NCBI GenBank assembly: GCA_964633995.1
Contig: CAZWKN010000005.1
Coordinates: 920 to 64,919 of the forward strand
From: an uncultured Gammaproteobacteria bacterium
GTDB lineage: Bacteria; Patescibacteriota; Microgenomatia; CAZETR01; Amesbacteraceae
DNA: 64,000 bases
Reading direction: 5' to 3'
Shown: one piece after another, positions 32,600-60,300 of the stretch
Layout of the letters: each line of letters begins with the position of its first letter
Position numbering within the stretch: position 1 is the stretch's first letter
The notes under the pieces: model-generated
The model's database searches: none
The model's input: only the letters and a program-made list of their open reading frames with translations
Told to the model about the DNA's origin: nothing
Translations under genes and position numbers: made by a program

Positions 32600-32662
32600 A
32601 CTCCCAATTTATCATTACTCGACCTTCTCTGCTACCATTCCTATCCTATCAAACTCACTTTG

Positions 32663-32733
32663 TCGGGGCGGGCAGAATTGAACTGCCTCCACACGCACCC
32701 CATGCGCGCATTCTACCGTCAAACTCCGCCCCG
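32663..32733 (-). tRNA. tRNA-Pro (anticodon GGG)
   Basis: A 71-nt cloverleaf read on the minus strand. Acceptor CGGGGCG/CGCCCCG (C1:G72) with A73, the tRNA-Pro identity pattern. Anticodon stem CGCGC/GCGTG with loop ATGGGGT (U33, GGG, G37). T-arm GGCAG-TTCAATT-CTGCC. The D-stem is weak (GTTT/GAAT) and position 8 is G. CCA is not encoded. Confidence 0.6.
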
Positions 32734-43828: not shown

Positions 43829-43869
43829 TCCCTCTCCATAATTGTGGAGAGGGGCAGGGGGTGAGGTGG
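43829..43869. repeat. Palindromic repeat element (CCCTCTCC-ATAATTGT-GGAGAGGGG plus GGGGGTGAGGTGG tail), intergenic copy upstream of miaA
   Basis: A 9-bp inverted repeat flanks an AT loop, followed by the G-rich tail. The same architecture recurs at least 12 times in the window. Confidence 0.85.
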
Positions 43870-43884
43870 TTGAGTTAAAATGAG

Positions 43885-44799
43885 ATGATGGTGTCCAAAG
43901 TTCTCATTATCAGTGGTCCTACTGCGACAGGAAAAACTAAATTTGGGTTAGAAATAGCCAAACAGTTCGACGGTGAAATTGTCTCCGCCGACTCTCGCCA
44001 GGTCTACATAGGTAAAAACATAATTCATGGCAAAGATCTCCCCGTCACTGTCAATTGTCAATCGTCAATTGTCAATTGGAGAGGGAGACGTTTAAAATAT
44101 TATGTAGTCGATGGTGTCAGGGTGTGGTTGTATGACGTAGTCAATCCCGGTGAAGACTTCAGTGTGGCTTTTTGGAAAGAATGCGCCGATTTGGTAATAG
44201 CAGATATTGTTTCGCGCAACAAATTGCCAATTATTGTCGGCGGTTCAGGTCTTTACATCAAATCACTTACCCAAAACCTGTCCCAGGTTTCAGTACCCCG
44301 CAACGAGAAACTAAGAGATCAGCTCCTAAATAAATCTGTCAAATACCTGTTTAATTATTTAAATCGTATCGATTCTTTCCGTGCCGCAGCCCTAAATCAT
44401 TCTGATAAAAACAACCCCCGTCGCCTTGTCAGGGCAATTGAATTATCGTTGTCAAAAGAAAAGTTACACCCCTCTCCTGAATTAAAGAGAGGCCTGTCTG
44501 CCGGCATGGCAGGGGTAGGGGGTGAGGTTTTGCAAATTGGTCTCATTGCCCCCCGCGATTATCTTTATCAGCTCGTAAATCACAGGGTCTCAGATCGCAT
44601 TGCAGCCGGCGCTGCCGCCGAGGACGCAAACTTAGCGAATTCACCAGTTCTTTGGCAAAATCAGGAACATGCCATTATTCGCCACCAACTCACCTGGTTC
44701 AAAAAACAACCCAACGTGACTTTTTTTGACGTTTCAGCTCCAAATTGGCAGGCAAACGCAACGACTTTTATCAAAAATTGGTATAATAACTCTACATGA
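43885..44799 (+). CDS. miaA: tRNA dimethylallyltransferase MiaA (carries in-frame repeat-derived insertions)
   Basis: P-loop ISGPTATGKT and SADSRQVY motifs. The ORF includes the heptamer tract at 44050-44078 and the palindromic element at 44468-44529. Confidence 0.85.
   Translation: MMVSKVLIISGPTATGKTKFGLEIAKQFDGEIVSADSRQVYIGKNIIHGKDLPVTVNCQSSIVNWRGRRLKYYVVDGVRVWLYDVVNPGEDFSVAFWKECADLVIADIVSRNKLPIIVGGSGLYIKSLTQNLSQVSVPRNEKLRDQLLNKSVKYLFNYLNRIDSFRAAALNHSDKNNPRRLVRAIELSLSKEKLHPSPELKRGLSAGMAGVGGEVLQIGLIAPRDYLYQLVNHRVSDRIAAGAAAEDANLANSPVLWQNQEHAIIRHQLTWFKKQPNVTFFDVSAPNWQANATTFIKNWYNNST
44050..44078. repeat. Tandem heptamer tract (TCAATTG x4, one variant) inside miaA
   Basis: tcaattg tcaatcg tcaattg tcaattg encodes ...VNCQSSIVN... 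in a region absent from typical MiaA. A similar tract lies in recJ at 56334-56378. Confidence 0.6.
44468..44529. repeat. Palindromic repeat element copy in frame within miaA (encodes ...HPSPELKRGLSAGMAGVGGEV...)
   Basis: CACCCCTCTCC-TGAATTAA-AGAGAGG plus a CTGCCGGCATGGCAGG palindrome module and a GGGGTAGGGGGTGAGG tail. The reading frame avoids the TGA and TAA in the loop. Confidence 0.85.
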
Positions 44800-45793: not shown

Positions 45794-46096
45794 TCCACCT
45801 GGAGACCGTGCGTCTATGCCTCCACAGTCCGGCTTGCCGGATGAAGGGGTAAGGAAAGTCCGGACAGCAGAAGGCAGGGTACCCCGCCGATGAGGCGGGG
45901 ACGCGCAAGCGCTAGATAGTGCCACAGAGACAACGACTCATCCCGCCAATGGCGGGAAAGAGGGTGAAAAGAGGAAAACCTTACCCGCTGCAACCTCCGA
46001 AATGGGTGGGTAGCCTTCCCCAATACCCAAAAGCTTGAGGGCGCAAGATAGATTGACGCATTAAAACAGAATCCGGCTTACCAGTTTCCAGGTGTA
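45794..46096 (+). ncRNA. rnpB: RNase P RNA (bacterial type A), compact roughly 300 nt
   Basis: Conserved P4 strands GGAAAGTCCGGAC (5') and ACAGAATCCGGCTTA (3'). P1 pairing CACCTGGA/TCCAGGTG at the ends. Also ...GCCACAGAGACAA...CCCGCCAATGGCGGG...AGGGTGAAAAGAGG... and GCTTGAGGGCGCAAGATAGATTGAC. Confidence 0.9.
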
Positions 46097-46268: not shown

Positions 46269-46832
46269 ATGCCGTTCTTGCTGGATCCCAAAGGCATTAA
46301 CTTTCGTGATCGCCCCATTCTGTTCATCGACCTAGAAACCACCGGCCTGGATCGACATCATCACGAGATTGTAGAAATTGCCGCCTTACTGGTTTCCCAG
46401 CCAGATTTTACCGTTACCAACTCTTTTTATACTAAAGTTATTCCGACCCATATCGAAACTGCCGATCCAAAAGCTCTCAAAGTGATCAATTATTCACCAG
46501 ATGATTGGCAGGAGGCTATCCCCCTAAACCAGGCTATGGAAGAATTGTCCAACTTTGCTCCTGGTTGCATCTTGGCTGGCTGGTCAGTCCAAACCGAGTG
46601 GGATTTTTTATGCCAATCGTTAGAAGCATGCAAACTCCCGTATTTTTTTACCCACCGGCTATTAGAGGTCTATACTCTGGCTTTTGCCAAATTTTACAAC
46701 GATCAATCCATTTCGTTTCTCAATCTGCCAAATGTTTGCAAAGCTCTAAATATTCGGCTAGATCAGCACAAACCAGATTCGGATATCCGTGCCACCTACG
46801 AGATCTTCAAACGCCTTTTCCCGTCCCCATAA
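46269..46832 (+). CDS. DEDD-family 3'-5' exonuclease (DnaQ/oligoribonuclease-like)
   Basis: Exo I motif ILFIDLETTGLD, Exo II and III regions with H/Y and D. 187 aa. Confidence 0.75.
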   Translation: MPFLLDPKGINFRDRPILFIDLETTGLDRHHHEIVEIAALLVSQPDFTVTNSFYTKVIPTHIETADPKALKVINYSPDDWQEAIPLNQAMEELSNFAPGCILAGWSVQTEWDFLCQSLEACKLPYFFTHRLLEVYTLAFAKFYNDQSISFLNLPNVCKALNIRLDQHKPDSDIRATYEIFKRLFPSP

Positions 46833-47262
46833 TTTCTCTAATTTTTTCAACCACTTTCTCTGTATCACTATCCACCTCCGCATTCCATACTTCCAGCAAG
46901 TTAATTCCAAAAGATTCTAAATATCTTCTTCGATAACAATCATATTTTTTATTGCTCTCGATTTTATGTACACTTCCAAGCAATTCAACCCCAAATCTTT
47001 TTTCCGGGCAATAAAAATCTATCACATATCCATTCACGCTATATTGTCTTCTAAATTTCACACCCAATTTGCCATTTCTCAGACTTTCCCACAACAACTT
47101 CTCTGCCTTTGTTGATTTCTGTCGCAAATCCCTTCTCCGCGCCTTCAATTCTGTACGGTAATACACCCTTTTTCTGTCGTCCACATTTCTAATTTTACTC
47201 TCCCAAAACCCCCCCTCTCCATAATTATGGAGAGGGGGTTGGGGGGTGAGGTGGAAGACCAT
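46807..47262 (-). CDS. DUF559 (Vsr-like endonuclease-fold) domain protein, copy 1; N-terminus runs into the palindromic repeat
   Basis: ...LWESLRNGKLGVKFRRQYSVNGYVIDFYCPEKRFGVELLGSVH... matches the DUF559 core. The first roughly 20 codons (..PPLHNYGEGG..) are encoded by the repeat element at 47210-47240. Confidence 0.7.
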   Translation of the reverse strand: MVFHLTPQPPLHNYGEGGFWESKIRNVDDRKRVYYRTELKARRRDLRQKSTKAEKLLWESLRNGKLGVKFRRQYSVNGYVIDFYCPEKRFGVELLGSVHKIESNKKYDCYRRRYLESFGINLLEVWNAEVDSDTEKVVEKIREIMGTGKGV

Positions 47263-47338
47263 GCGTCACAGTTGGGGTTGGGGGGTGAGGTGGAAGACCA
47301 TATGTCACAGTTGGGTGATGGGGGTGGGGTTGAAAAGG
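47210..47338. repeat. Palindromic repeat element cluster with an internal tandem duplication (about 39-nt unit x2)
   Basis: CCCCCCTCTCC-ATAATTAT-GGAGAGGGGG, then GGTTGGGGGGTGAGGTGGAAGACCAT(G/A)(C/T)GTCACAGTTGG twice. The listed minus ORF 47225..47437 (PPHPPTP repeats) is derived from this repeat. Confidence 0.85.
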
Positions 47339-52028: not shown

Positions 52029-52388
52029 GTGAACCTCAGATATAACAGAGTTTCTCTTAAACCACGTCGCAGACAATTAAGAAAAAATTCAACTCATTGT
52101 GAACAGTTGTTATGGGGAGAAATTAGAAACAGGAAGCTCAAATATAAATTTATTAGGCAGTATAGCGTAGATGGTTATGTAATGGATTTTTATTCACCGG
52201 AAGCAAGATTGGGAATCGAGATCGAAGGGGAGATTCATAAATTTACAAAGAAATACGATAAATATCGAGAAAAATATATAAGTGCGTTTTGGATAAAGAT
52301 TTTAAAATTTAAGAACGATGATATCCAAAACAATATTACCTTTGTCGTGGAAACAATAAAACGAAACCTTGACTCCCCCTCTATTTAA
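52029..52388 (+). CDS. DUF559 (Vsr-like endonuclease-fold) domain protein, copy 2; C-terminus and stop are supplied by the repeat loop
   Basis: ...LLWGEIRNRKLKYKFIRQYSVDGYVMDFYSPEARLGIEIEGEIH... The last codons ..SPSI plus TAA lie inside the palindromic element at 52375. Confidence 0.7.
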   Translation: MNLRYNRVSLKPRRRQLRKNSTHCEQLLWGEIRNRKLKYKFIRQYSVDGYVMDFYSPEARLGIEIEGEIHKFTKKYDKYREKYISAFWIKILKFKNDDIQNNITFVVETIKRNLDSPSI

Positions 52389-52487
52389 CTAAAGAGAGGG
52401 GGGCTGGGGGGTGAGTTAAACACAAACAAATCAAGTTTTCTCCCCCTCTATTTAACTAAAGAGAGGGGGGCTGGGGGGTGAGTTACA
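52375..52487. repeat. Two tandem copies (about 66-nt spacing) of the palindromic element, variant loop TATTTAACTAAAG
   Basis: CCCCCTCTA-TTTAACTAA-AGAGAGGGGGG CTGGGGGGTGAG occurs twice. Confidence 0.85.
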
Positions 52488-55066: not shown

Positions 55067-56683
55067 ATGACTCTCGACTCTATCATCCAACTTCTTCTCA
55101 AAAATCGCGGTCTGACGACCAAAAAAGCTATCGCGGATTTTTTTTCACCTCCCCATCCCAACGATATCATCTCACCCTTTGACTCCAAACCTGCTATCGA
55201 CTTAATTCATAGTCACATAGCTCAAAATAACCCCATTGCCGTTTATGGCGACTACGACGTCGATGGTATCTGTTCAACAGCAATTTTGTGGGAGACGTTG
55301 CATGCAGAATATCCGCATGTTTTTCCCCACATTCCTCACCGAAGGCTTGAAGGTTACGGCTTGTCTATTGCCGGGATCGATCATTGTCTTGCCCAGGGTG
55401 CCAAACTAATTATTGCTGTAGACAACGGTATTACTGCCGTGGATCAGGTTAAGTATTGTCGTGACCATGGATGTGACATTTTAATCATCGACCACCACGA
55501 AAAAGGTTCAACGCTTCCGGATACGCAATATGTACTACACGCTACGGATTGTTGTGCCGCCGGCCTGACCTGGTTTTTCTGCCGAGACTACATTAAAAAA
55601 TTCCCCTCTCCTGAATTAAGGAGAGGGGGCAGGGGTGAGGTTTTAGAACTAGTCTCTCTCGCCACCATATGTGACATGGTTCCTCTAATTGGCACCAACC
55701 GTTCTTTTGCCAAATTTGGATTAGAGCAATTAAACCACACCACCCGCCCCGGCCTCCTTGCCTTATTTCAAAAAGCCTCTCTAACCCCTAACACCCAACC
55801 CCTAACCACCTATCATATCGGTTTTCTCATCGGTCCTCGTCTCAATGCCATGGGTAGATTGGAGCACGCTATCGACAGTCTCCGTCTGCTTTGTACCAAA
55901 GATCCGATCAAGGCAGATTCAATCGCCACTTTACTAAACGACACCAACAAGCTTCGCCAGGATCTTACTGAGTCAGCCGTAAAAAACGCAACAAATTCAC
56001 TATCCCCTAGCTCCCTATCCCCAGTAATAGTTGTCTCCAGCTCGGATTACGACGAAGGGGTTATCGGGTTAATCGCTTCCAAGTTAGTTGAAAAATTTCA
56101 TCATCCGGCAATCGCTATTAGTGTAGGGGAGACCGTGTCCAAAGGTTCAGCCAGATCTATTCCCGGTTTTGATATTACAGCTCATTTGCGCCAGTTTTCC
56201 GGTTTGTTGGTAAGCATAGGTGGTCACACCATGGCCGCTGGTTTCACCATCGAAACCTCAAGGATCCAGGATCTAGTATCTAGCATCTCCCATCCAGATA
56301 TCCCCAAGGAGTTGTTGCAAAAAACCCAACGTGTCGATTGCGAAATTCCATTGTCGATTGTCAATTCTCAATTATCAACTGCACTCAAATCTTTCGAGCC
56401 ATTTGGCCTTGGCAACCCCACTCCGGTTTTTCAATCACAAGCCGAAATTTCATCGATCAAAACCATGGGCAGTATGGGACAACATGCCAGGTTAACTCTA
56501 AAGGATTGTCCATTCGATGCCGTCTGGTTCAACGCCACATTCCCCTCTCCTGAAATGAGGAGAGGGGGTAGGGGTGAGGTTGTGGGAGAAGTTTGGAACA
56601 TAATTTATACTCTCTCCGAAAACACCTACAACGGCCAAACCAAACTCCAGCTACTCATCAAATCCGTTACCCCCTCTCCATGA
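55067..56683 (+). CDS. recJ: Single-stranded-DNA-specific exonuclease RecJ (DHH/DHHA1), carrying two in-frame palindromic-element insertions
   Basis: DHH motifs (VYGDYDVDGICS; ILIIDHHE) and a DHHA1 region (GGHTMAAG). The stop TGA lies in the loop of the repeat copy at 56670. Confidence 0.85.
   Translation: MTLDSIIQLLLKNRGLTTKKAIADFFSPPHPNDIISPFDSKPAIDLIHSHIAQNNPIAVYGDYDVDGICSTAILWETLHAEYPHVFPHIPHRRLEGYGLSIAGIDHCLAQGAKLIIAVDNGITAVDQVKYCRDHGCDILIIDHHEKGSTLPDTQYVLHATDCCAAGLTWFFCRDYIKKFPSPELRRGGRGEVLELVSLATICDMVPLIGTNRSFAKFGLEQLNHTTRPGLLALFQKASLTPNTQPLTTYHIGFLIGPRLNAMGRLEHAIDSLRLLCTKDPIKADSIATLLNDTNKLRQDLTESAVKNATNSLSPSSLSPVIVVSSSDYDEGVIGLIASKLVEKFHHPAIAISVGETVSKGSARSIPGFDITAHLRQFSGLLVSIGGHTMAAGFTIETSRIQDLVSSISHPDIPKELLQKTQRVDCEIPLSIVNSQLSTALKSFEPFGLGNPTPVFQSQAEISSIKTMGSMGQHARLTLKDCPFDAVWFNATFPSPEMRRGGRGEVVGEVWNIIYTLSENTYNGQTKLQLLIKSVTPSP
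55601..55641. repeat. Palindromic element copy in frame within recJ (encodes FPSPELRRGGRGEV)
   Basis: TCCCCTCTCC-TGAATTAA-GGAGAGGGGG CAGGGGTGAGG. Confidence 0.85.
56334..56378. repeat. Degenerate tandem heptamer tract (TCGATTG/TCAATTN) inside recJ
   Basis: tcgattg cgaaattccat tgtcgattg tcaattc tcaatta tcaa encodes ...DCEIPLSIVNSQLST... The heptamer family matches the miaA tract. Confidence 0.5.
56541..56581. repeat. Second palindromic element copy in frame within recJ (encodes FPSPEMRRGGRGEV)
   Basis: TCCCCTCTCC-TGAAATGA-GGAGAGGGGG TAGGGGTGAGG. Confidence 0.85.
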
Positions 56684-56995
56684 TTATGGAGAGGGGGGGC
56701 CTGCCCGCCGGCAGGCGGGGGTGAGGTGGAATATTATGTCATCGCTAAACCCGCCCTGGCGGGTGTGGCGATCTTGGGTAGAGATTGCTTCTCTTCGTTC
56801 GCAATGACATAAAACTGTTCGTGCACCCCCCTCTTAAATTAAGAGGGGGGAAGGGGGGTGATATCTCTCTTATGGTGTCATCGCGAACCCGCCCCGGCAA
56901 TCCCATATTGTCATCGCGAACCCGCCTTGGCGGATGTGGAGATCTACATCTCCCTCTCCTGAAATGAGGAGAGGGAATAAGGGAGAGGTCATAAT
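56668..56995. repeat. Dense composite repeat cluster: three palindromic-element variants plus three copies of a second repeat (TGTCATCGCGAACCCGCC-YTGG-CGGRTGTGG) and an inverted partial copy
   Basis: Element variants at 56670-56730 (loop ATGATTAT plus a GCCTGCCCGCCGGCAGGCGGG module), 56826-56865 (CTCTTAAATTAAGAG) and 56948-56992 (CTCTCCTGAAATGAGGAGAG). TGTCATCGC... copies at 56737, 56876 and 56908, with an inverted GCAATGACA copy at 56801. Confidence 0.8.
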
Positions 56996-56998
56996 AAG

Positions 56999-57184
56999 CT
57001 AAGTTCTAGCTGTTCTTGCTCTTTGTGCGACCTTTTTATCTTCTTCAGCTCTTCTCCTTTGCGCTTCAGTGGGTCTGAATTGTGGCACTAGCCCCAAAAC
57101 CGCATTCATAATCATATCTCTCATGGGCAACCCCGCTTCGTGAGCGCAACCAAATTTTGCAGGTTTTGCTTCTGTTGCTGCCAT
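56999..57184 (-). CDS. Small hypothetical protein (61 aa) with basic C-terminus
   Basis: Canonical SD AAGGAGGTGA 7 nt upstream of the ATG (minus strand). Confidence 0.5.
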   Translation of the reverse strand: MAATEAKPAKFGCAHEAGLPMRDMIMNAVLGLVPQFRPTEAQRRRAEEDKKVAQRARTART

Positions 57185-57205
57185 ATTTTTTCACCTCCTT
57201 CAACT

Positions 57206-57228
57206 AAAAAACCCCGCTTTTTGCGGGG
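57206..57228 (-). terminator. Intrinsic terminator-like hairpin (CCCCGC-AAAAA-GCGGGG plus TTTTTT on the minus strand) 9 nt upstream of the small gene's SD; possible attenuator
   Basis: GC hairpin and U-tract read on the minus strand, placed between the upstream leader and the RBS of 56999..57184. Confidence 0.5.
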
Positions 57229-57362
57229 TATTTGTAAAAAATAAATAACGTTTCTTACATTCCCCCGCGGATTGCCCAGTTAAGGACAATACGAAGCCCG
57301 CCCTTAATAATGGCGTGCTGGGAAAATGTATGCATCAAAGACATGTGAAACATTTTAATATC

Positions 57363-57391
57363 TTGACTTAAGTTTAGTCAAGAACGATAAT
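57363..57391 (+). promoter_or_regulatory. Sigma-70-like promoter (TTGACT-N17-GATAAT) directed toward aspS; -35 embedded in a palindrome TTGAC-N10-GTCAA
   Basis: Near-consensus -35 and -10 hexamers with 17-nt spacing, about 190 nt upstream of the aspS ATG. Confidence 0.5.
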
Positions 57392-57537
57392 ACCCTCAAA
57401 GCGTTATTAGTCTGCCGACACCAGACGAGCTTCCCGAAAAAACCGGGACGGACCCATCCGTAAAAGTGGAAATCAAGACCCCTGATGTGGATGGCACCTT
57501 GGATCCGCACCATTAAAGGGTCTTTTTTGTTTTTATT

Positions 57538-57580
57538 TCCCCTCTTAGATTAAGAGGGGAACCCGAAGGAGGGGTGATAT
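57538..57580. repeat. Palindromic element variant (CCCCTCTTAGATTAAGAGGGG plus GGAGGGGTGA) overlapping the aspS ribosome-binding site
   Basis: The tail AAGGAGGGG ends 9-11 nt before the aspS ATG. Confidence 0.75.
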
Positions 57581-57583
57581 TTT

Positions 57584-58900
57584 ATGAACCGTACTTTAAT
57601 TAATCAAACCATCTCAAAAATTGGAGAAACAGTCCTTCTTAAAGGCTGGGTAAACAGTAGGCGGGATCATGGCAAGATCGTTTTTATAGACTTGCGTGAC
57701 AGGACGGGTCTAATGCAGATAGTTTTATCGCCGGAATTAGCCGCCGATCTTCATGTTGAGGATGTTGTCCAAATATCTGGATTAGTCAAAGCCCGGCCTG
57801 AAAAACTAGTTAATCCAAAGCTGGTTTCAGGTACGGTAGAGCTGGAAGCCAAAGAGGTTGTCGTGCTTAGTAAATCAGCCGAATTGCCTTTCGACCTGGG
57901 TCAGGAAACATTGGACCTACAGCTTCCTACCCTTTTGGATTATCGGGCGCTTACTCTCAGGCATCCCAAAGTTCAGGCGATTTTCAAAGTTCAGGAGGTA
58001 GTCATTGATAGCTTTAGAAAAGCGCTACAAGCGAGGGATTTTAGAGAGTTCCAAGCACCAAACATCATTTCCTCGATTCCCGAGGGGGGGGCCGAAGTTT
58101 TTGAGGTCAAATACTTTGACCACAAAGCTTATTTGTCCCAGAGCCCTCAGTTATATAAATCATTGTTAGTAGGGGATTTTGAAAGAGTCTTTAGCGTCAA
58201 CAAAGTTTTTAGGGCCGAACCCAGTGTCACGACCCGTCACCTAACCGAAGTAGTAAGTTTGGACGCAGAATTTGGCTTTTTGGAGTCCTGGTTAGATGTT
58301 TTGGAGATGGAGGAATACGTAGTCAGATTTATCTTTTCAGAAGTAGAAAAAAAGTGTCAGGCTGAGTTGGCATTATTCCAGGCTACCTTGCCCAAATTGG
58401 CAGATAAAATACCGTTGGTGAAACTCAGGGATGCCCAAGAAATAATTCTTCAAAGAACCGGGCGAGATTCCCGACACGAAAAAGATCTTTCACCGGAAGA
58501 CGAACGCGAAATCTGTAGATGGTCACTCGAAGAACATGGGTCTGATCTGGTCTACGTTTCACATTTCTTAACTGCCAAAAAACCTTTTTACATCCAACCA
58601 GATCCGGAAAATCCAGAGTTTGTTTTAAGCGTAGATTTGTTGGGACGAGGGGTAGAATGGTCCAGTGGGGGCCAAAGGCTCAATGATTATGACCACATAC
58701 GAAAAAACATCAAAGAGTGGGGATTAAAAGAGGAAGATGTGGCCATGTATCTTCAAGCATTTAAATATGGCGTGCCTCCTTTGGGGGGTTTTGCCTTGGG
58801 AGCGGAAAGAGTGACCATGCACATTTTGGGTCTACAAAACATTCGTGAAGCCTCTTTGTTTCCCCGCGATATGGAAAGAGTAGACTTCCGACTTTCATGA
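57584..58900 (+). CDS. aspS: Aspartyl-tRNA synthetase, short (archaeal/eukaryal-like, likely non-discriminating) type
   Basis: N-terminal OB anticodon-binding domain and class II motifs (FRAE..; GLDRLVM-like GAERVTMHILG). 438 aa with no GAD insertion domain. Confidence 0.88.
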   Translation: MNRTLINQTISKIGETVLLKGWVNSRRDHGKIVFIDLRDRTGLMQIVLSPELAADLHVEDVVQISGLVKARPEKLVNPKLVSGTVELEAKEVVVLSKSAELPFDLGQETLDLQLPTLLDYRALTLRHPKVQAIFKVQEVVIDSFRKALQARDFREFQAPNIISSIPEGGAEVFEVKYFDHKAYLSQSPQLYKSLLVGDFERVFSVNKVFRAEPSVTTRHLTEVVSLDAEFGFLESWLDVLEMEEYVVRFIFSEVEKKCQAELALFQATLPKLADKIPLVKLRDAQEIILQRTGRDSRHEKDLSPEDEREICRWSLEEHGSDLVYVSHFLTAKKPFYIQPDPENPEFVLSVDLLGRGVEWSSGGQRLNDYDHIRKNIKEWGLKEEDVAMYLQAFKYGVPPLGGFALGAERVTMHILGLQNIREASLFPRDMERVDFRLS

Positions 58901-59805
58901 CCAAGAAATTTCTTATCCGCAAATTCAAGCTGCTATTTCATAAATCCAAAAAAAAAGATTTTTCTCACCTGGCGGTCTTTTTATTGACGGTTTTAATCGG
59001 TCTAAATCTTTCATCACCATCAAAAATCCCGGTTACTAGGCAGTCGGTTTTAGGGCAATCATCAAAATTTCTCAAAGCCTCGCCACCCGTCGTTTCCGCT
59101 AAAAGCGTTTTTATTCTCGATATAACTTCTGGGGAAGTGGTCTATCAAAAACAAGCAGATTCCGAGGTCTACCCGGCATCCACCACCAAAATGATGACAG
59201 CTGTAATTGCCAAAGAAACTTTCGACCCGAATCAAGTCCTCACCATTTCCCGTCTATATAATCTTGGGAGTCAGGATCTCAAATTGCCGGTAGGCGGGAA
59301 AATTACTATAGAAAAATTGCTGTACGCTCTCCTGGTTTCTTCTTCAAACGATGCGGCCGAAATACTTGCCGAAAATTACCCCGGAGGAAGAACCGCTTTC
59401 GTTGAGGCCATGAATCGCAAGGCTTCGGAACTGTTACTTCACCACACTCATTTTGAAAATCCTACCGGCTTGGACCAAATAAACCATTATTCATCCGCAG
59501 CCGATTTAGCCAGGTTGGCCAAACATCTGATTTCAGTTCCGGAATTAGCCAGGATCGTTGGGACTCAAACCGCCGTCCTTTCCACCGTCGACTTTTCCGG
59601 GGTCTACACGGTCACAAATGTAAACCAGCTGTTGGGTAAAGTGCCTGGCGTTATGGGGGTAAAGACTGGTTTTACAGATTTAGCAGGCCAGGTCTTAGTG
59701 ACTTACGTCAATCGCGAGAACAGACCTCTAATCATTAGTGTCCTGGGCAGTTTAGACCGTTTTTCTGATACCGAATCCCTCATCACCTGGGCCTATTCGC
59801 AATAA
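58897..59805 (+). CDS. D-alanyl-D-alanine carboxypeptidase (S11 family, PBP5-like)
   Basis: SxxK ASTTKMM, SxN SSSND and KTG KTGFT motifs. N-terminal TM or signal. Confidence 0.8.
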   Translation: MTKKFLIRKFKLLFHKSKKKDFSHLAVFLLTVLIGLNLSSPSKIPVTRQSVLGQSSKFLKASPPVVSAKSVFILDITSGEVVYQKQADSEVYPASTTKMMTAVIAKETFDPNQVLTISRLYNLGSQDLKLPVGGKITIEKLLYALLVSSSNDAAEILAENYPGGRTAFVEAMNRKASELLLHHTHFENPTGLDQINHYSSAADLARLAKHLISVPELARIVGTQTAVLSTVDFSGVYTVTNVNQLLGKVPGVMGVKTGFTDLAGQVLVTYVNRENRPLIISVLGSLDRFSDTESLITWAYSQ

Positions 59806-60130
59806 CAACTTCTCCACAACCTTGTCCATATCCCTTTCAACTTCATTATTCCAAAATTCCAGTACAACTATGCCAAACGCCTCTAAATATTTTTTTCTGT
59901 AACCATCATATCGATCCCCAATCTTTTTTCCGGACAATAAAAATCCATTACATACCCATTCACGCTGTACTGTCTTCTAAATTTTACCCATAATTGATTG
60001 TTTCGCAATTTTTCCCAAAGCAATTTCTCTGCATTCGTCGATTTTTGTCGTTAATCTCTTCTTCTGGCCTTGAGTTCAGTACGATAATATACTCTTTTTC
60101 TATCGTCCATGCCATAATTTTACTCTTCTT
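59752..60130 (-). pseudogene. DUF559 gene copy 3, disrupted (frameshifted); only a 61-aa C-terminal ORF remains
   Basis: Nucleotide sequence 59905-60125 is near-identical to 46925-47205 (DUF559 copy 1) but with a broken frame. The remnant ORF ...KKYLEAFGIVVLEFWNNEVERDMDKVVEKL matches the copy-1 C-terminus. It is followed by the same palindromic element. Confidence 0.7.
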
Positions 60131-60133
60131 ATT

Positions 60134-60300
60134 TCTCCCCTCTCCACAATTGTGGAGAGGGGCAGGCCTGCCTGCCGGCAGGCAGGGGGTGAGGTGGTAC
60201 GCGTGTCGCGGAATTATTGTGAAGTTATGGTTACAGCGTGTGGGCAGGGGGTGAGGTGGTACACACGTCGCGGAACTATTGTGAAGTTATGGTTACAGCA
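60134..60300. repeat. Palindromic element (loop ACAATTGT plus GCCTGCCTGCCGGCAGGCAGG module) followed by a diverged tandem duplication (about 62-nt period x2)
   Basis: CCCTCTCC-ACAATTGT-GGAGAGGGG, then GGCAGGGGGTGAGGTGGTAC..CGTCGCGGAA.TATTGTGAAGTTATGGTTACAGC repeated at 60181 and 60243. Confidence 0.85.

What the first reader, a model, noticed from the sequence alone, without database searches (positions are those of the whole stretch)
55601..56581. A palindromic repeat element is inserted twice, in frame, inside recJ
Two copies of the same roughly 40-nt element, CCCCTCTCC-TGAA(T/A)T(A/G)A-GGAGAGGGGG-(C/T)AGGGGTGAGG, lie at 55601 and 56541 within the RecJ ORF. They translate as FPSPELRRGGRGEV and FPSPEMRRGGRGEV without breaking the frame. 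In both cases the reading frame is the one that skips the TGA/TAA triplets present in the loop. This resembles the in-frame Rickettsia palindromic elements (RPEs): selfish DNA that survives by adding neutral peptide loops to proteins. It does not appear to have been reported for this lineage.
Basis: seen in the sequence. Interest (0 to 1): 0.85.

Follow-up and report, generated by a model that had tools for sequence, protein, structure and literature searches.

The report
Triplex-motif repeats inserted in-frame in recJ
Two copies of a 42-base hairpin-plus-tail repeat, a type long known between genes in E. coli as BoxC or "triplex motif", sit in frame inside the recJ gene of an uncultured candidate-phyla bacterium and add 14-residue surface loops; the same repeats flank a small nuclease gene (DUF559) that may be what spreads them.

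Summary
Identical-boundary 42-nt copies lie at 55601-55642 and 56540-56581 in a 538-aa RecJ ORF. They read FPSPELRRGGRGEV and FPSPEMRRGGRGEV, in the only stop-free sense frame.

Most RecJ orthologs lack both segments. One ortholog has an empty site 1 at the DNA level. In an AlphaFold model both segments are low-confidence loops between secondary-structure elements.

The element is more than a palindrome. It has a pyrimidine arm, a purine arm and a mirror-repeat G-rich tail. This is the architecture of the BoxC / PIT / TM_ECO class II intrastrand-triplex motif (Holder 2015), whose stem and tail I found exactly in many phyla.

The window holds 12 such motifs, all on the + strand. One lies in frame in miaA and one supplies the recJ stop codon. 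The same loops of RecJ and MiaA carry such inserts in 45 of 360 ortholog sites examined, always in sense orientation and with a patchy phylogenetic distribution.

Beyond the finding, DUF559 (Vsr-like nuclease) genes are bracketed by these motifs. Whole motif-DUF559-motif cassettes occur in frame in MiaA, UvrC, AroC and other proteins.

The RPE-like reading is largely right. In-frame copies of this family, and the DUF559 link, appear unreported.

The parts
55067..56683 (+). recJ ORF (538 aa; DHH, DHHA1, RecJ_OB), the host gene of the two in-frame copies
55601..55642 (+). In-frame triplex-motif copy 1. Y arm CCCCTCTCC, loop TGAATTAA, R arm GGAGAGGGG, 3-nt loop GCA, mirror tail GGGGTGAGG. Peptide FPSPELRRGGRGEV, residues 179-192.
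56540..56581 (+). In-frame triplex-motif copy 2 (loop TGAAATGA, second loop GTA). Peptide FPSPEMRRGGRGEV, residues 492-505.
56670..56727 (+). Long-variant motif with a second hairpin, CCTGCCCGCCGGCAGG, in loop 2. The recJ stop codon TGA lies in its first loop (..TPSP*).
43885..44799 (+). miaA ORF (tRNA dimethylallyltransferase, PF01715), the host of a third in-frame copy
44470..44529 (+). In-frame long-variant motif in miaA (60 nt; PSPELKRGLSAGMAGVGGEV), in the linker before the LQIGL strand
43829..43869 (+). Intergenic motif (loop ATAATTGT) just upstream of miaA
47210..47330 (+). Motif (loop ATAATTAT) followed by three tandem tail units (47243, 47282, 47321). It lies 27 nt upstream of the DUF559 start on the opposite strand.
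46807..47184 (-). DUF559 (PF04480) Vsr-like nuclease gene with a GTG start. Its last codons (..IMGTG..) resemble a degenerate right arm of the motif.
52375..52481 (+). Two tandem copies of a variant motif: CCCCCTCT-ATTTAACTAA-AGAGAGGGGGG-CTG-GGGGGTGAGT. All 11 triads are valid.
56826..56860 (+). Variant motif CCCCCCTCTTAA-A-TTAAGAGGGGGG-AA-GGGGGGTGAT
56950..56990 (+). Intergenic copy with the coding-type loop TGAAATGA and tail GGGAGAGGT
57537..57576 (+). Variant motif whose tail GGAGGGGTG lies 8 nt before the aspS ATG (57584), in Shine-Dalgarno position
60136..60257 (+). Long-variant motif plus a second tandem tail unit at 60248
59800..60110 (-). DUF559 pseudogene (MDDRKRVYYRTELKARRRD*, then an internal deletion), with the 60136 motif 27 nt upstream of its ATG

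Best explanation
The two recJ segments are solo copies of a short dispersed DNA element of the BoxC / PIT / 'TM' type. This element is a pyrimidine arm, a complementary purine arm and a G-rich tail that mirrors the purine arm, so one DNA strand can fold into a hairpin and, in principle, a purine-motif intrastrand triplex. Copies landed in, or were copied into, recJ twice and miaA once. They persist there because four conditions hold: (i) they are 42 or 60 nt long, a multiple of three; (ii) they lie in the one sense frame that is stop-free for the TGAAWTRA loop subtype; (iii) that frame encodes a flexible Pro/Gly/Arg-rich peptide; and (iv) they sit in loops or linkers that tolerate length variation. 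They are therefore most likely translated as extra surface loops, as Rickettsia palindromic elements are. All of this is shown, except that translation is inferred.

How the element spreads is inferred, not shown. My preferred model is that the motifs are the ends or recognition sites of a selfish cassette encoding a DUF559 (Vsr-like PD-(D/E)XK) nuclease. In this model the solo motifs are either non-autonomous derivatives, or footprints or landing pads of that cassette. Propagation would occur on one DNA strand, which would explain the uniform orientation. I put about 0.85 on the first part (an in-frame repeat of this family, translated as loops) and about 0.35-0.4 on DUF559 being the mobilising enzyme.
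For: Repeat family in the window:
- A rule-based class II triplex finder gives 12 motifs, all on the + strand. Markov shuffles give a mean of 0.4 per window. A simple hairpin pattern gives 8 matches against 0 expected.
- The tail read 3'->5' (GGAGTGGGG) against the purine arm (GGAGAGGGG) gives 9 of 9 valid G*G, A*A or T*A triads with a 3-nt second loop. This follows from the sequence and the pattern given in PMC4666352.
- Variant subfamilies at 52375 and 56826 change the arm and the tail together and keep the rule.

Insertion rather than ancestral sequence:
- Most of 120 RecJ homologs have short loops at both sites.
- L004 is empty at site 1 (CRDFGSVPS|LELV) and filled at site 2.
- The distribution on the RecJ tree is patchy. 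Sisters P0002 and P0003 differ at both sites, and P0016 carries site 1 in a distant clade.
- The element is 90-95% identical in nucleotides and 93-100% at third positions between orthologs. The rest of recJ is 61-67% and 38-44% identical.

Loops:
- The AF2 model has mean pLDDT 92.8. Insert 1 is coil between H164-176 and H193-202 with pLDDT about 50. Insert 2 lies between strands 484-487 and 509-521 with pLDDT 76-80.

Generality:
- 26 of 120 MiaA homologs carry such peptides in the same linker.
- In-frame copies occur in an Anaerolineae DegT aminotransferase, an Anaerolineae membrane protein and a UvrC.
- Across the RecJ and MiaA loops there are 45 sense-oriented and no purely antisense copies.

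Known family:
- E. coli TM_ECO is CCCTCTCCC-N3-6-GGGAGAGGG-N3-GGGTGAGGG.

DUF559 link:
- Two DUF559 copies in the window each have a motif 27 nt upstream of the start.
- In 10 metagenome DUF559 loci, 8 upstream and 9 downstream flanks hold a strict motif. There were 0 motifs in 28 kb of control DNA from the same loci and 0 in shuffled flanks.
- 43 of 104 diverse DUF559 representatives have motif-type peptides in their read-through ends, against 0.5% of control segments.
- Whole motif-DUF559-motif cassettes lie in frame in AroC, in MiaA (IPPT-DUF559-IPPT, seen in two samples), and in UvrC, a glycosyltransferase and HsdS.
- A DUF559 profile matches the homing endonuclease I-Bth0305I, PDB 3r3p, at E 5.7e-6.
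Against: - No target-site duplication or defined insertion junction could be recognised; the loops are too diverged.
- No insertion polymorphism between near-identical strains was seen, so mobility is inferred from patchy distribution only.
- Holder et al. found no association of TM_ECO with mobile elements in E. coli and no strand bias there.
- Only about 3% of 120 randomly hit motif loci have a DUF559 gene next to them, so most copies are solo.
- DUF559-flanking hairpins in a high-G+C set of IMG/VR viral-collection loci (their composition suggests alphaproteobacteria; no taxonomy was looked up) fail the strict pyrimidine/purine rule and have their tails pointing inward instead of outward.
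- Translation of the inserts is not demonstrated.
- The identical 3' junction (GAGGTT|TTAGAA) in three lineages could equally mean one old insertion kept by constraint, with later losses.
Confidence: 0.78

Rival explanations
1. There was one ancient insertion at each loop in an ancestor of these Microgenomates, inherited vertically. It has been kept nearly invariant by selection on the DNA or RNA structure and lost precisely in many lineages. On this view there were no repeated recent insertions.
For: The 3' junction at site 1 is identical in the window, L001 and L003. Holder 2015 reports frequent precise or partial deletion of these motifs in E. coli. Stem and tail are invariant, and only the loops vary.
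Against: P0016/L003 lies in a distant RecJ clade whose neighbours lack the insert. Sister proteins differ at both sites. The same loop subtype TGAAWTRA occurs in miaA and in intergenic DNA of the same genome. Different motif subfamilies, and unrelated repeat types, occupy the same loops in other orthologs.
Confidence: 0.25
2. The motifs are host-beneficial structural signals, for example mRNA 3' hairpins, ribosome-binding-site donors, replication or recombination punctuation, or translational pause sites between folding units. On this view the intragenic copies are selected for such a function and are not merely tolerated.
For: The recJ stop codon lies in a motif loop in three lineages. A motif tail sits in Shine-Dalgarno position before aspS. 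All 12 copies share one orientation. The architecture is strongly conserved inside coding sequence.
Against: Most orthologs do without the inserts. PIT elements showed no promoter or terminator activity and no effect on RNA polymerase in E. coli, as summarised in PMC4666352. The occupied loops also accept unrelated repeat types. Purine-motif triplexes are stated not to form in RNA.
Confidence: 0.15
3. The inserts are not translated. They would be removed from the mRNA or bypassed by the ribosome, as with mobile GC-rich hairpin inserts in some yeast mitochondrial genes.
For: A stable hairpin (-22 kcal/mol) lies inside the ORF. I found no direct evidence of translation.
Against: All six intragenic copies seen as DNA lie in the single stop-free sense frame and are multiples of three. 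All 45 ortholog copies are read through in frame. If the inserts were not translated, two thirds of copies would be expected in a closed frame.
Confidence: 0.03
4. The similarity is chance, low-complexity convergence of loop sequences, or an assembly artefact of a metagenome-assembled genome.
For: The element is G/C-rich and of low complexity, and repeats can mislead assemblers.
Against: Shuffles gave 0 matches. RecJ homology is continuous on both sides of each insert. The same inserts appear in independent assemblies from other samples (L001/L002, L003, L004).
Confidence: 0.01

Closest known systems
BoxC / PIT (potential intrastrand triplex) elements / TM_ECO G/C-rich class II triplex motifs of E. 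coli and other bacteria (Holder et al. 2015, PMC4666352, and the earlier reports of BoxC and PIT elements it cites)
   Same: The three-domain order is the same: pyrimidine arm, purine arm, mirror purine tail. The arms are 9 nt long and the second loop is 3 nt. The A*A plus T*A triad design is the same. The base composition is nearly the same (CCCCTCTCC/GGAGAGGGG/GGGGTGAGG against CCCTCTCCC/GGGAGAGGG/GGGTGAGGG). Both are multi-copy, have variable loops, and occur in inverted pairs in some genomes.
   Different: The register is shifted by one G, so the published TM_ECO regular expression does not match exactly. The first loop is longer. Density is about 40 times higher (12 in 64 kb against 23 in 4.6 Mb). 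All copies are on one strand, whereas E. coli shows no bias. Copies lie inside genes in frame, whereas in E. coli they are 'always intergenic'. An optional second hairpin sits in loop 2.
Rickettsia palindromic elements (RPE; Ogata et al. 2000, 2002, as summarised in PMC10969869)
   Same: Both are dispersed palindromic repeats inserted in frame in unrelated housekeeping genes, read as extra peptide segments compatible with the fold.
   Different: RPEs are about 100-150 bp, fall into ten Rickettsia-specific families, and have no triplex tail and no associated nuclease gene. Here the unit is 42-60 nt, the family spans phyla, and the same loops are hit repeatedly in different lineages.
REP / REPIN elements with RAYT transposases, and IS200/IS605-type single-strand transposition (from general knowledge; REPIN paper PMC3116915 appeared in the results of literature search but was not read)
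   Same: Both involve short hairpin repeats dispersed in many copies, a dedicated enzyme gene flanked by inverted copies of the repeat, and a strand-specific orientation that would fit a single-stranded DNA mechanism.
   Different: The flanked gene here is a DUF559 PD-(D/E)XK nuclease, not a Y1 transposase. REPs are extragenic. No guide tetranucleotide or defined cleavage site is known here.
Free-standing and intron- or intein-borne homing endonuclease genes, in particular the Vsr-like I-Bth0305I family (PDB 3r3p)
   Same: The DUF559 profile matches the I-Bth0305I catalytic domain. DUF559 cassettes interrupt conserved genes precisely and keep the host frame open.
   Different: No intron or intein (Hint) scaffold is present, so the cassette would stay in the host protein as an inserted domain. 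The hairpin/triplex ends have no counterpart in known homing systems.
Intragenic MITEs (ERIC, BOX, Correia, Anabaena MITEs; PMC10969869)
   Same: They are small non-autonomous repeats that sometimes create in-frame fusions.
   Different: No terminal-inverted-repeat plus target-site-duplication structure could be recognised here. The size is far below typical MITEs.

Membership tests
Class II (purine-motif) intrastrand triplex motif, BoxC/PIT/TM type | Domain order 5'-pyrimidine arm, loop, Watson-Crick complementary purine arm, loop, third arm-3' | tested here: met
   CCCCTCTCC / GGAGAGGGG / GGGGTGAGG in both recJ copies. The rule-based finder found 12 copies.
Class II (purine-motif) intrastrand triplex motif, BoxC/PIT/TM type | The third arm, antiparallel to the purine arm, forms only G*G-C, A*A-T or T*A-T triads, with at most one mismatch | tested here: met
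   9 of 9 triads are valid in both recJ copies. 11 of 11 are valid in the 52375 variant and 10 of 10 in the 56826 variant. Shuffled sequence gives 0.4 motifs per window.
Class II (purine-motif) intrastrand triplex motif, BoxC/PIT/TM type | Exact TM_ECO pattern CCCTCNCCC-N3-6-GGGNGAGGG-N3-GGGNGAGGG (PMC4666352) | tested here: not met
   The arms are shifted by one G (CCCCTCTCC), and the first loop is 6 nt after an 11-bp stem, or 8 nt between the 9-nt arms. The 3-nt second loop matches. The element is therefore the same class and design, not the E. coli subfamily.
Class II (purine-motif) intrastrand triplex motif, BoxC/PIT/TM type | Forms a triplex as single-stranded DNA (CD/NMR) | not testable with these tools
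   Only the hairpin could be predicted. In E. coli the triplex is shown in vitro but not in vivo.
Rickettsia palindromic elements (RPE) | In-frame insertion of a dispersed palindromic repeat in unrelated conserved genes, at positions compatible with the fold | tested here: met
   recJ twice, miaA once. Orthologs lack the inserts and the AF2 model shows loops.
Rickettsia palindromic elements (RPE) | Membership of RPE sequence families (about 100-150 bp, Rickettsia) | tested here: not met
   The element is 42-60 nt, from a CPR bacterium, and has a triplex tail. The size and family description of RPEs come from PMC10969869. No direct alignment to RPE sequences was made.
REP/REPIN-RAYT system | A Y1 (IS200/IS605-like) transposase gene flanked by inverted repeats of the element | tested here: not met
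   The flanked gene is DUF559 (PF04480). The window was not exhaustively screened for a RAYT gene.
MITE | Terminal inverted repeats plus a target-site duplication; derived from an IS | tested here: inconclusive
   The hairpin arms could count as inverted repeats. No duplication was recognisable when filled and empty sites were compared.
Homing-endonuclease-type selfish gene (for the DUF559 cassette) | A nuclease gene that interrupts conserved host genes at precise sites and is absent from orthologs | tested here: met
   AroC residues 1-148 and 321-483 align to PDB AroC residues 3-149 and 203-368, with the cassette between them. MiaA shows IPPT-DUF559-IPPT in two samples. UvrC, a glycosyltransferase and HsdS are further cases.
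Homing-endonuclease-type selfish gene (for the DUF559 cassette) | The nuclease cleaves the empty target and the cassette is copied in by repair | not testable with these tools
   There is only sequence similarity to I-Bth0305I (3r3p, E 5.7e-6) and to PvuRts1I.

The most novel reading that the evidence does not exclude
BoxC / PIT / triplex motifs have had no assigned origin or function in the literature I read (PMC4666352). In the most novel reading, they are the ends or targets of a previously unrecognised, pan-bacterial selfish element driven by the DUF559 Vsr-like nuclease. The cassette (motif-DUF559-motif) and its solo motifs insert strand-specifically, often in frame, into surface loops of conserved proteins such as RecJ, MiaA, UvrC and AroC. 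They would thus act as a general source of loop and domain insertions in bacterial proteins, especially in small CPR genomes.
Probability: 0.35. Interest if true: 0.85.

Novelty: new variant of a known kind. Interest (0 to 1): 0.68.

Why it matters
Two known things meet here. In-frame selfish palindromes are so far best known from Rickettsia. The BoxC/PIT triplex motif is conserved across bacteria but has no established function or mode of spread.

This locus shows that the triplex motif can live inside essential genes as translated loops. It does so recurrently at the same loops in many lineages, which has three practical consequences:
- It explains a class of odd Pro/Gly/Arg-rich segments, and 'PSP..GEG..GEV' hypothetical peptides, in metagenome proteins.
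- It warns annotators and structure predictors about such inserts.
- It offers natural data on which loops of RecJ, MiaA and UvrC tolerate insertions.

The tight bracketing of DUF559 genes by these motifs, and whole cassettes sitting in frame in housekeeping genes, turns an open question (what are these motifs, and what does DUF559 do?) into a direct experiment. That experiment can be done in E. coli, where ycjD and BoxC sit side by side.

Tried and rejected
- **Source contig.** Looking up the contig by the exact RecJ translation found nothing. P0001 later showed an identical protein on a 66.7-kb NCBI contig, so no further genome context was available.
- **Rfam.** The gathering-threshold search found only RNase P; no RNA family covers the element.
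- **PDB alignments.** Sequence alignments of RecJ and MiaA were too distant to delimit the inserts. Ortholog alignments and the AF2 model were used instead.
- **DUF559 near motifs.** tblastn of DUF559 against 120 motif loci found only 5 genes, 3 of them in the window-like arrangement. 'Every motif has a nuclease next to it' is therefore rejected. The association holds in the other direction, from DUF559 to motifs.
- **Strict triplex rule.** It fails for most DUF559 flanks in the high-G+C IMG/VR viral-collection set. I do not claim the triplex rule is universal.
- **Target-site duplication or target consensus.** None was convincing.
- **GC skew.** It is weakly negative on the gene-rich + strand, so I could not tell whether the motif strand is the leading- or lagging-strand template.
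- **Long-ORF test on cross-phylum copies.** The test is contaminated by spurious ORFs in high-G+C genomes. Only the Pfam-validated cases are used.
- **Literature.** Searches on in-frame palindromes in CPR, on DUF559 plus palindromic repeats, and on small dispersed repeats gave nothing relevant.
- **Translational bypass or splicing.** Considered and rejected on frame statistics.
Full report
**1. Observation**

The window carries TTCCCCTCTCCTGAATTAAGGAGAGGGGGCAGGGGTGAGGTT at 55601-55642 and TTCCCCTCTCCTGAAATGAGGAGAGGGGGTAGGGGTGAGGTT at 56540-56581. The two copies are 39/42 identical, and dinucleotide-preserving shuffles gave no match.

Both copies lie in ORF 55067..56683 (+), 538 aa. This ORF has the DHH, DHHA1 and RecJ_OB domains and hundreds of RecJ homologs in Microgenomates and other Patescibacteria (CPR). 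The nearest non-identical homolog is only 63% identical. The copies read FPSPELRRGGRGEV and FPSPEMRRGGRGEV. The other two sense frames meet TAA or TGA in the loop.

As RNA, each copy forms an 11-bp stem with a 6-nt loop at -22 kcal/mol (z about -3), and the last 13 nt stay unpaired.

**2. Anatomy: three arms, not a palindrome**

- The unpaired tail GGGGTGAGG is the mirror image of the purine arm GGAGAGGGG, with one A replaced by T.
- Read antiparallel to the purine arm, it gives nine triads of the types G*G-C, A*A-T and T*A-T, across a 3-nt loop (GCA or GTA).
- I wrote a finder for this rule: 8-nt pyrimidine arm, complementary purine arm, mirror arm, at most one mismatch each. It returns 12 motifs in the window, all on the + strand. 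Markov shuffles give 0.4 per window.
- The simple hairpin pattern gives 8 matches against 0 expected. The tail decamer gives 14 matches against 3 expected, 13 of them on the + strand.
- Three sequence subfamilies are present: the CCCCTCTCC type, the 52375 type and the 56826 type. Each changes the purine arm and the tail together so that the triads stay valid.
- A long variant carries a second small hairpin (CCTGCC.GCCGGCAGG) in loop 2.
- Two loop subtypes exist. TGAAWTRA is open in sense frame 0. ATRATTRT / ACAATTGT gives TAA or TGA in frame 0. The first subtype is the one found inside genes.

**3. Are the recJ segments insertions?**

In a MAFFT alignment of 120 RecJ homologs, most have short loops at both places, for example CRDYL-APN-TEH-LSL and FNAPE-IPNN-PVDIVY.

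I fetched DNA for three orthologs:
- L004 is empty at site 1 (TTC GGA TCG GTT CCA TCG | TTA GAA) and filled at site 2.
- L001 and L003 are filled at site 1 and lack the element at site 2.

Between these genes the bulk of recJ is 61-67% identical in nucleotides and 38-44% identical at third codon positions. The element is 90-95% and 93-100% identical, and its differences are confined to the two loops.

On a neighbour-joining tree of RecJ (insert columns removed) the inserts are patchy. Sisters P0002 and P0003 differ at both sites, and P0016 carries site 1 in a distant clade.

An AlphaFold2 model built from 68 sequences has mean pLDDT 92.8. It places residues 179-192 in coil between helices 164-176 and 193-202, with pLDDT about 50. 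It places residues 492-505 between strands 484-487 and 509-521, with pLDDT 76-80.

**4. More copies in genes**

- A 60-nt long variant lies in frame in miaA at 44470-44529 (PSPELKRGLSAGMAGVGGEV), in the linker before the LQIGL strand.
- 26 of 120 MiaA homologs carry motif-type peptides in the same linker, and the baseline linker is 12-15 residues.
- The recJ stop codon lies in loop 1 of a further motif (..TPSP*). The same is true in L001 and L003.
- Across the two RecJ loops and the MiaA linker I count 45 sense-oriented motif peptides and no purely antisense one. This is so even though two of the three antisense frames of the recJ element are stop-free, which follows directly from the sequence.
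- The same loops also hold unrelated repeat-like peptides in other orthologs: EHxTLNxEH, CHPERSEGS.., LDAERYTLDA, SPFxPERTxLN. These loops are general landing or tolerance sites.
- Outside CPR, in-frame copies occur in a DegT/DnrJ/EryC1 aminotransferase and a PTPS_related membrane protein of Anaerolineae. One also occurs in a UvrC from an unclassified MAG.
- All six intragenic copies seen as DNA are multiples of three and in the single open sense frame. This argues for translation and against bypass or splicing.

**5. What family is it?**

A full-text search for the two arm sequences led to Holder et al. [quoted passage not shown] That paper reports the following:
- The TM_ECO motif is CCCTCNCCC-N3-6-GGGNGAGGG-N3-GGGNGAGGG.
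- It was earlier called BoxC and PIT (potential intrastrand triplex) element.
- It is a class II purine-motif triplex with the same arm order, arm length, 3-nt second loop and A*A/T*A design.
- It was found 3,610 times in 262 proteobacterial genomes, and related G/C-rich motifs are abundant in cyanobacteria.
- In E. coli K-12 the 23 copies are always intergenic, show no strand bias, are not linked to known mobile elements and have no promoter or terminator activity.
- The triplex forms in vitro in single strands, but was not seen in vivo.
- The loci are unusually variable between strains.

These came from Cyanobacteria, Chloroflexi, Bacteroidota, Planctomycetota, Gemmatimonadota, Armatimonadota, Ignavibacteria, Zixibacteria, several CPR lineages and some Proteobacteria. 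Stem and tail were fixed by the search pattern, and the loops between them vary widely among the hits.

The window element is the same class and design as TM_ECO. Its register is shifted by one G, so the published regular expression does not match exactly. Rfam has no family for it.

A 2024 MITE review lists in-frame RPE, ERIC, BOX and Anabaena elements but not BoxC or triplex motifs. I found no report of in-frame copies or of CPR.

**6. The DUF559 connection (beyond the finding)**

In the window:
- The minus-strand ORF 46807..47184 is a DUF559 protein (PF04480, E 2.6e-28).
- A degraded copy lies at about 59800-60110.
- Each has a motif 27 nt upstream of its start, with the tail pointing away.

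In related loci:
- In ten metagenome loci chosen only by similarity to this protein, 8 upstream and 9 downstream flanks contain a strict motif. They form the arrangement [tail'-hairpin]-DUF559-[hairpin-tail].
- The arm sequences differ between loci (CCCTCTCC, CCCCTCC, CCCCCCT ...), but each keeps the mirror tail.
- The rest of those loci (28 kb) and shuffled flanks contain none.
- In fifteen high-G+C loci from the IMG/VR viral collection (composition suggestive of alphaproteobacteria; no taxonomy was looked up), DUF559 is again bracketed by hairpin plus small hairpin plus G-rich tail. There the tails point inward and the strict rule usually fails.

In E. coli K-12:
- ycjD (DUF559) ends ..SPSP* with its stop in a degenerate motif loop.
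- TM_ECO copy 9 lies 168 nt downstream.
- The hrpB-mrcB BoxC pair is [hairpin-tail]-16 nt-[tail'-hairpin] with nothing between.

In a wider protein sample:
- A full HMMER search of 1.84 billion representatives found 17,921 DUF559 relatives.
- Among the best 150, I could place the core motif in 104. Of these, 43 carry motif-type peptides in their read-through ends, against 0.5% of control segments.
- About eight have DUF559 embedded in frame inside another protein, bracketed by motif peptides. These include MiaA (Pfam IPPT-DUF559-IPPT, two samples, DNA checked), UvrC, a glycosyltransferase, HsdS and a restriction-modification methylase.
- A chorismate synthase in L134 is split in the same way. 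AroC residues 1-148 and 321-483 align to residues 3-149 and 203-368 of a solved AroC.
- The MiaA cassette sits directly before the strand (LVLNLDPDRE in P0366) that I judged by eye to correspond to the window protein's LQIGLIAPRD, that is, in the linker where the window MiaA has its solo motif (no alignment was made).

A DUF559 profile matches PDB 3hrl (E 9e-32), the homing endonuclease I-Bth0305I (3r3p, E 5.7e-6) and PvuRts1I. Only 25 papers in the searchable library mention DUF559, and none mentions it in its title or abstract or, from the titles and abstract openings returned, concerns repeats.

**7. Mechanism**

Shown:
- The element is a multi-copy, cross-phylum triplex-type motif.
- The recJ and miaA copies are insertions at variable loops.
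- They are in the only open sense frame and are multiples of three.
- All copies share one strand.
- DUF559 genes are bracketed by such motifs.
- Whole cassettes interrupt conserved genes in frame.

Inferred:
- The inserts are translated.
- The motifs spread as DNA, on one strand.
- DUF559 is the enzyme that cuts at, or copies into, motif sites.
- Solo motifs are non-autonomous copies, footprints or landing pads.

On orientation: the uniform strand includes four motifs that lie next to minus-strand genes. This fits a chromosome-strand (replication-linked, single-strand) process better than a transcription-linked one. However, the window has too few minus-strand genes, and its GC skew is too ambiguous, to settle the point.

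The main rival for the history is a single old insertion per loop, kept by DNA-level constraint with many losses. The identical 3' junction in three lineages allows this reading. The tree, the shared loop subtype in miaA and intergenic DNA, and the turnover of repeat types at these loops speak for repeated events.

**8. Verdict**

The finding is real, and the RPE analogy is apt at the level of how it works. The element is a member of a known class (BoxC/PIT/TM), not a new lineage-specific palindrome. What appears new:
- in-frame, recurrent, sense-only copies of this class in conserved proteins of CPR and Chloroflexi;
- their very high density and single orientation in this genome;
- the association with DUF559 cassettes.

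Limits: only one 64-kb window of the source genome was available, there is no strain-level polymorphism and no expression data, and the DUF559 role rests on association and distant homology only.

Noticed in passing
window 46807-47330 and 59800-60257; loci L126-L135, L008, L012, L122, L125: DUF559 (Vsr-like nuclease) genes are bracketed by inverted hairpin-plus-tail triplex motifs. In 10 metagenome loci, 8 upstream and 9 downstream flanks hold a motif, against 0 in 28 kb of control DNA. E. coli ycjD ends in a degenerate motif and has TM_ECO copy 9 lying 168 nt downstream.
   Followed up: yes
L134 1440-2918; L152 1501-2724; proteins P0366, P0381, P0384, P0338, P0244: Whole motif-DUF559-motif cassettes sit in frame inside conserved proteins (AroC, MiaA, UvrC, a glycosyltransferase, HsdS, a restriction-modification methylase) with no intein or intron scaffold. 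The MiaA cassette sits directly before the strand that, by eye, corresponds to the one following the solo motif in the window MiaA.
   Followed up: partly
RecJ homologs P0005, P0006, P0009, P0012, P0015, P0017, P0021, P0026; MiaA homologs P0125, P0128, P0131, P0143: The same RecJ and MiaA loops carry other repeat-like peptides in other lineages (EHxTLNxEH, CHPERSEGS../SLSRDDK, LDAERYTLDA, SPFxPERTxLN, NYEPTNYE). These loops seem to collect several unrelated short repeat families.
   Followed up: no
window 56738-56775, 56866-56895, 56908-56945, and 56778-56812: A second repeat family, GTCATCGC(G/T)AACCCGCC..GGCGG.TGTGG.GATC, occurs three times. A GAGATTGCTTCTCTTCGTTCGCAATGAC unit lies in the same 300-nt stretch downstream of recJ.
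   Followed up: no
window 47243-47330 and 60186-60300: Tandem duplications of the motif tail together with the following 29-52 nt (periods 39 and 62 nt) lie on the tail side of the two DUF559-adjacent motifs.
   Followed up: no
window 57537-57586: The tail of a variant motif (GAAGGAGGGGTG) lies 8 nt upstream of the aspS start codon, where a Shine-Dalgarno sequence is expected.
   Followed up: no
window 56684-57583 compared with L001 8846-10315 and L004 10453-11934: In syntenic relatives a RelA/SpoT-family gene lies between recJ and aspS. In the window that gene is absent from this position, which instead holds about 900 nt of repeats and a 61-aa minus-strand ORF (56999-57184).
   Followed up: no
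window 45798-46096 (+) and 32662-32733 (-): Bacterial RNase P RNA class A (Rfam, 113 bits) and tRNA-Pro(GGG).
   Followed up: no
whole window: About 95% of long ORFs are on the + strand, yet GC skew on that strand is weakly negative throughout. The usual link between gene strand, leading strand and G excess does not obviously hold here.
   Followed up: no
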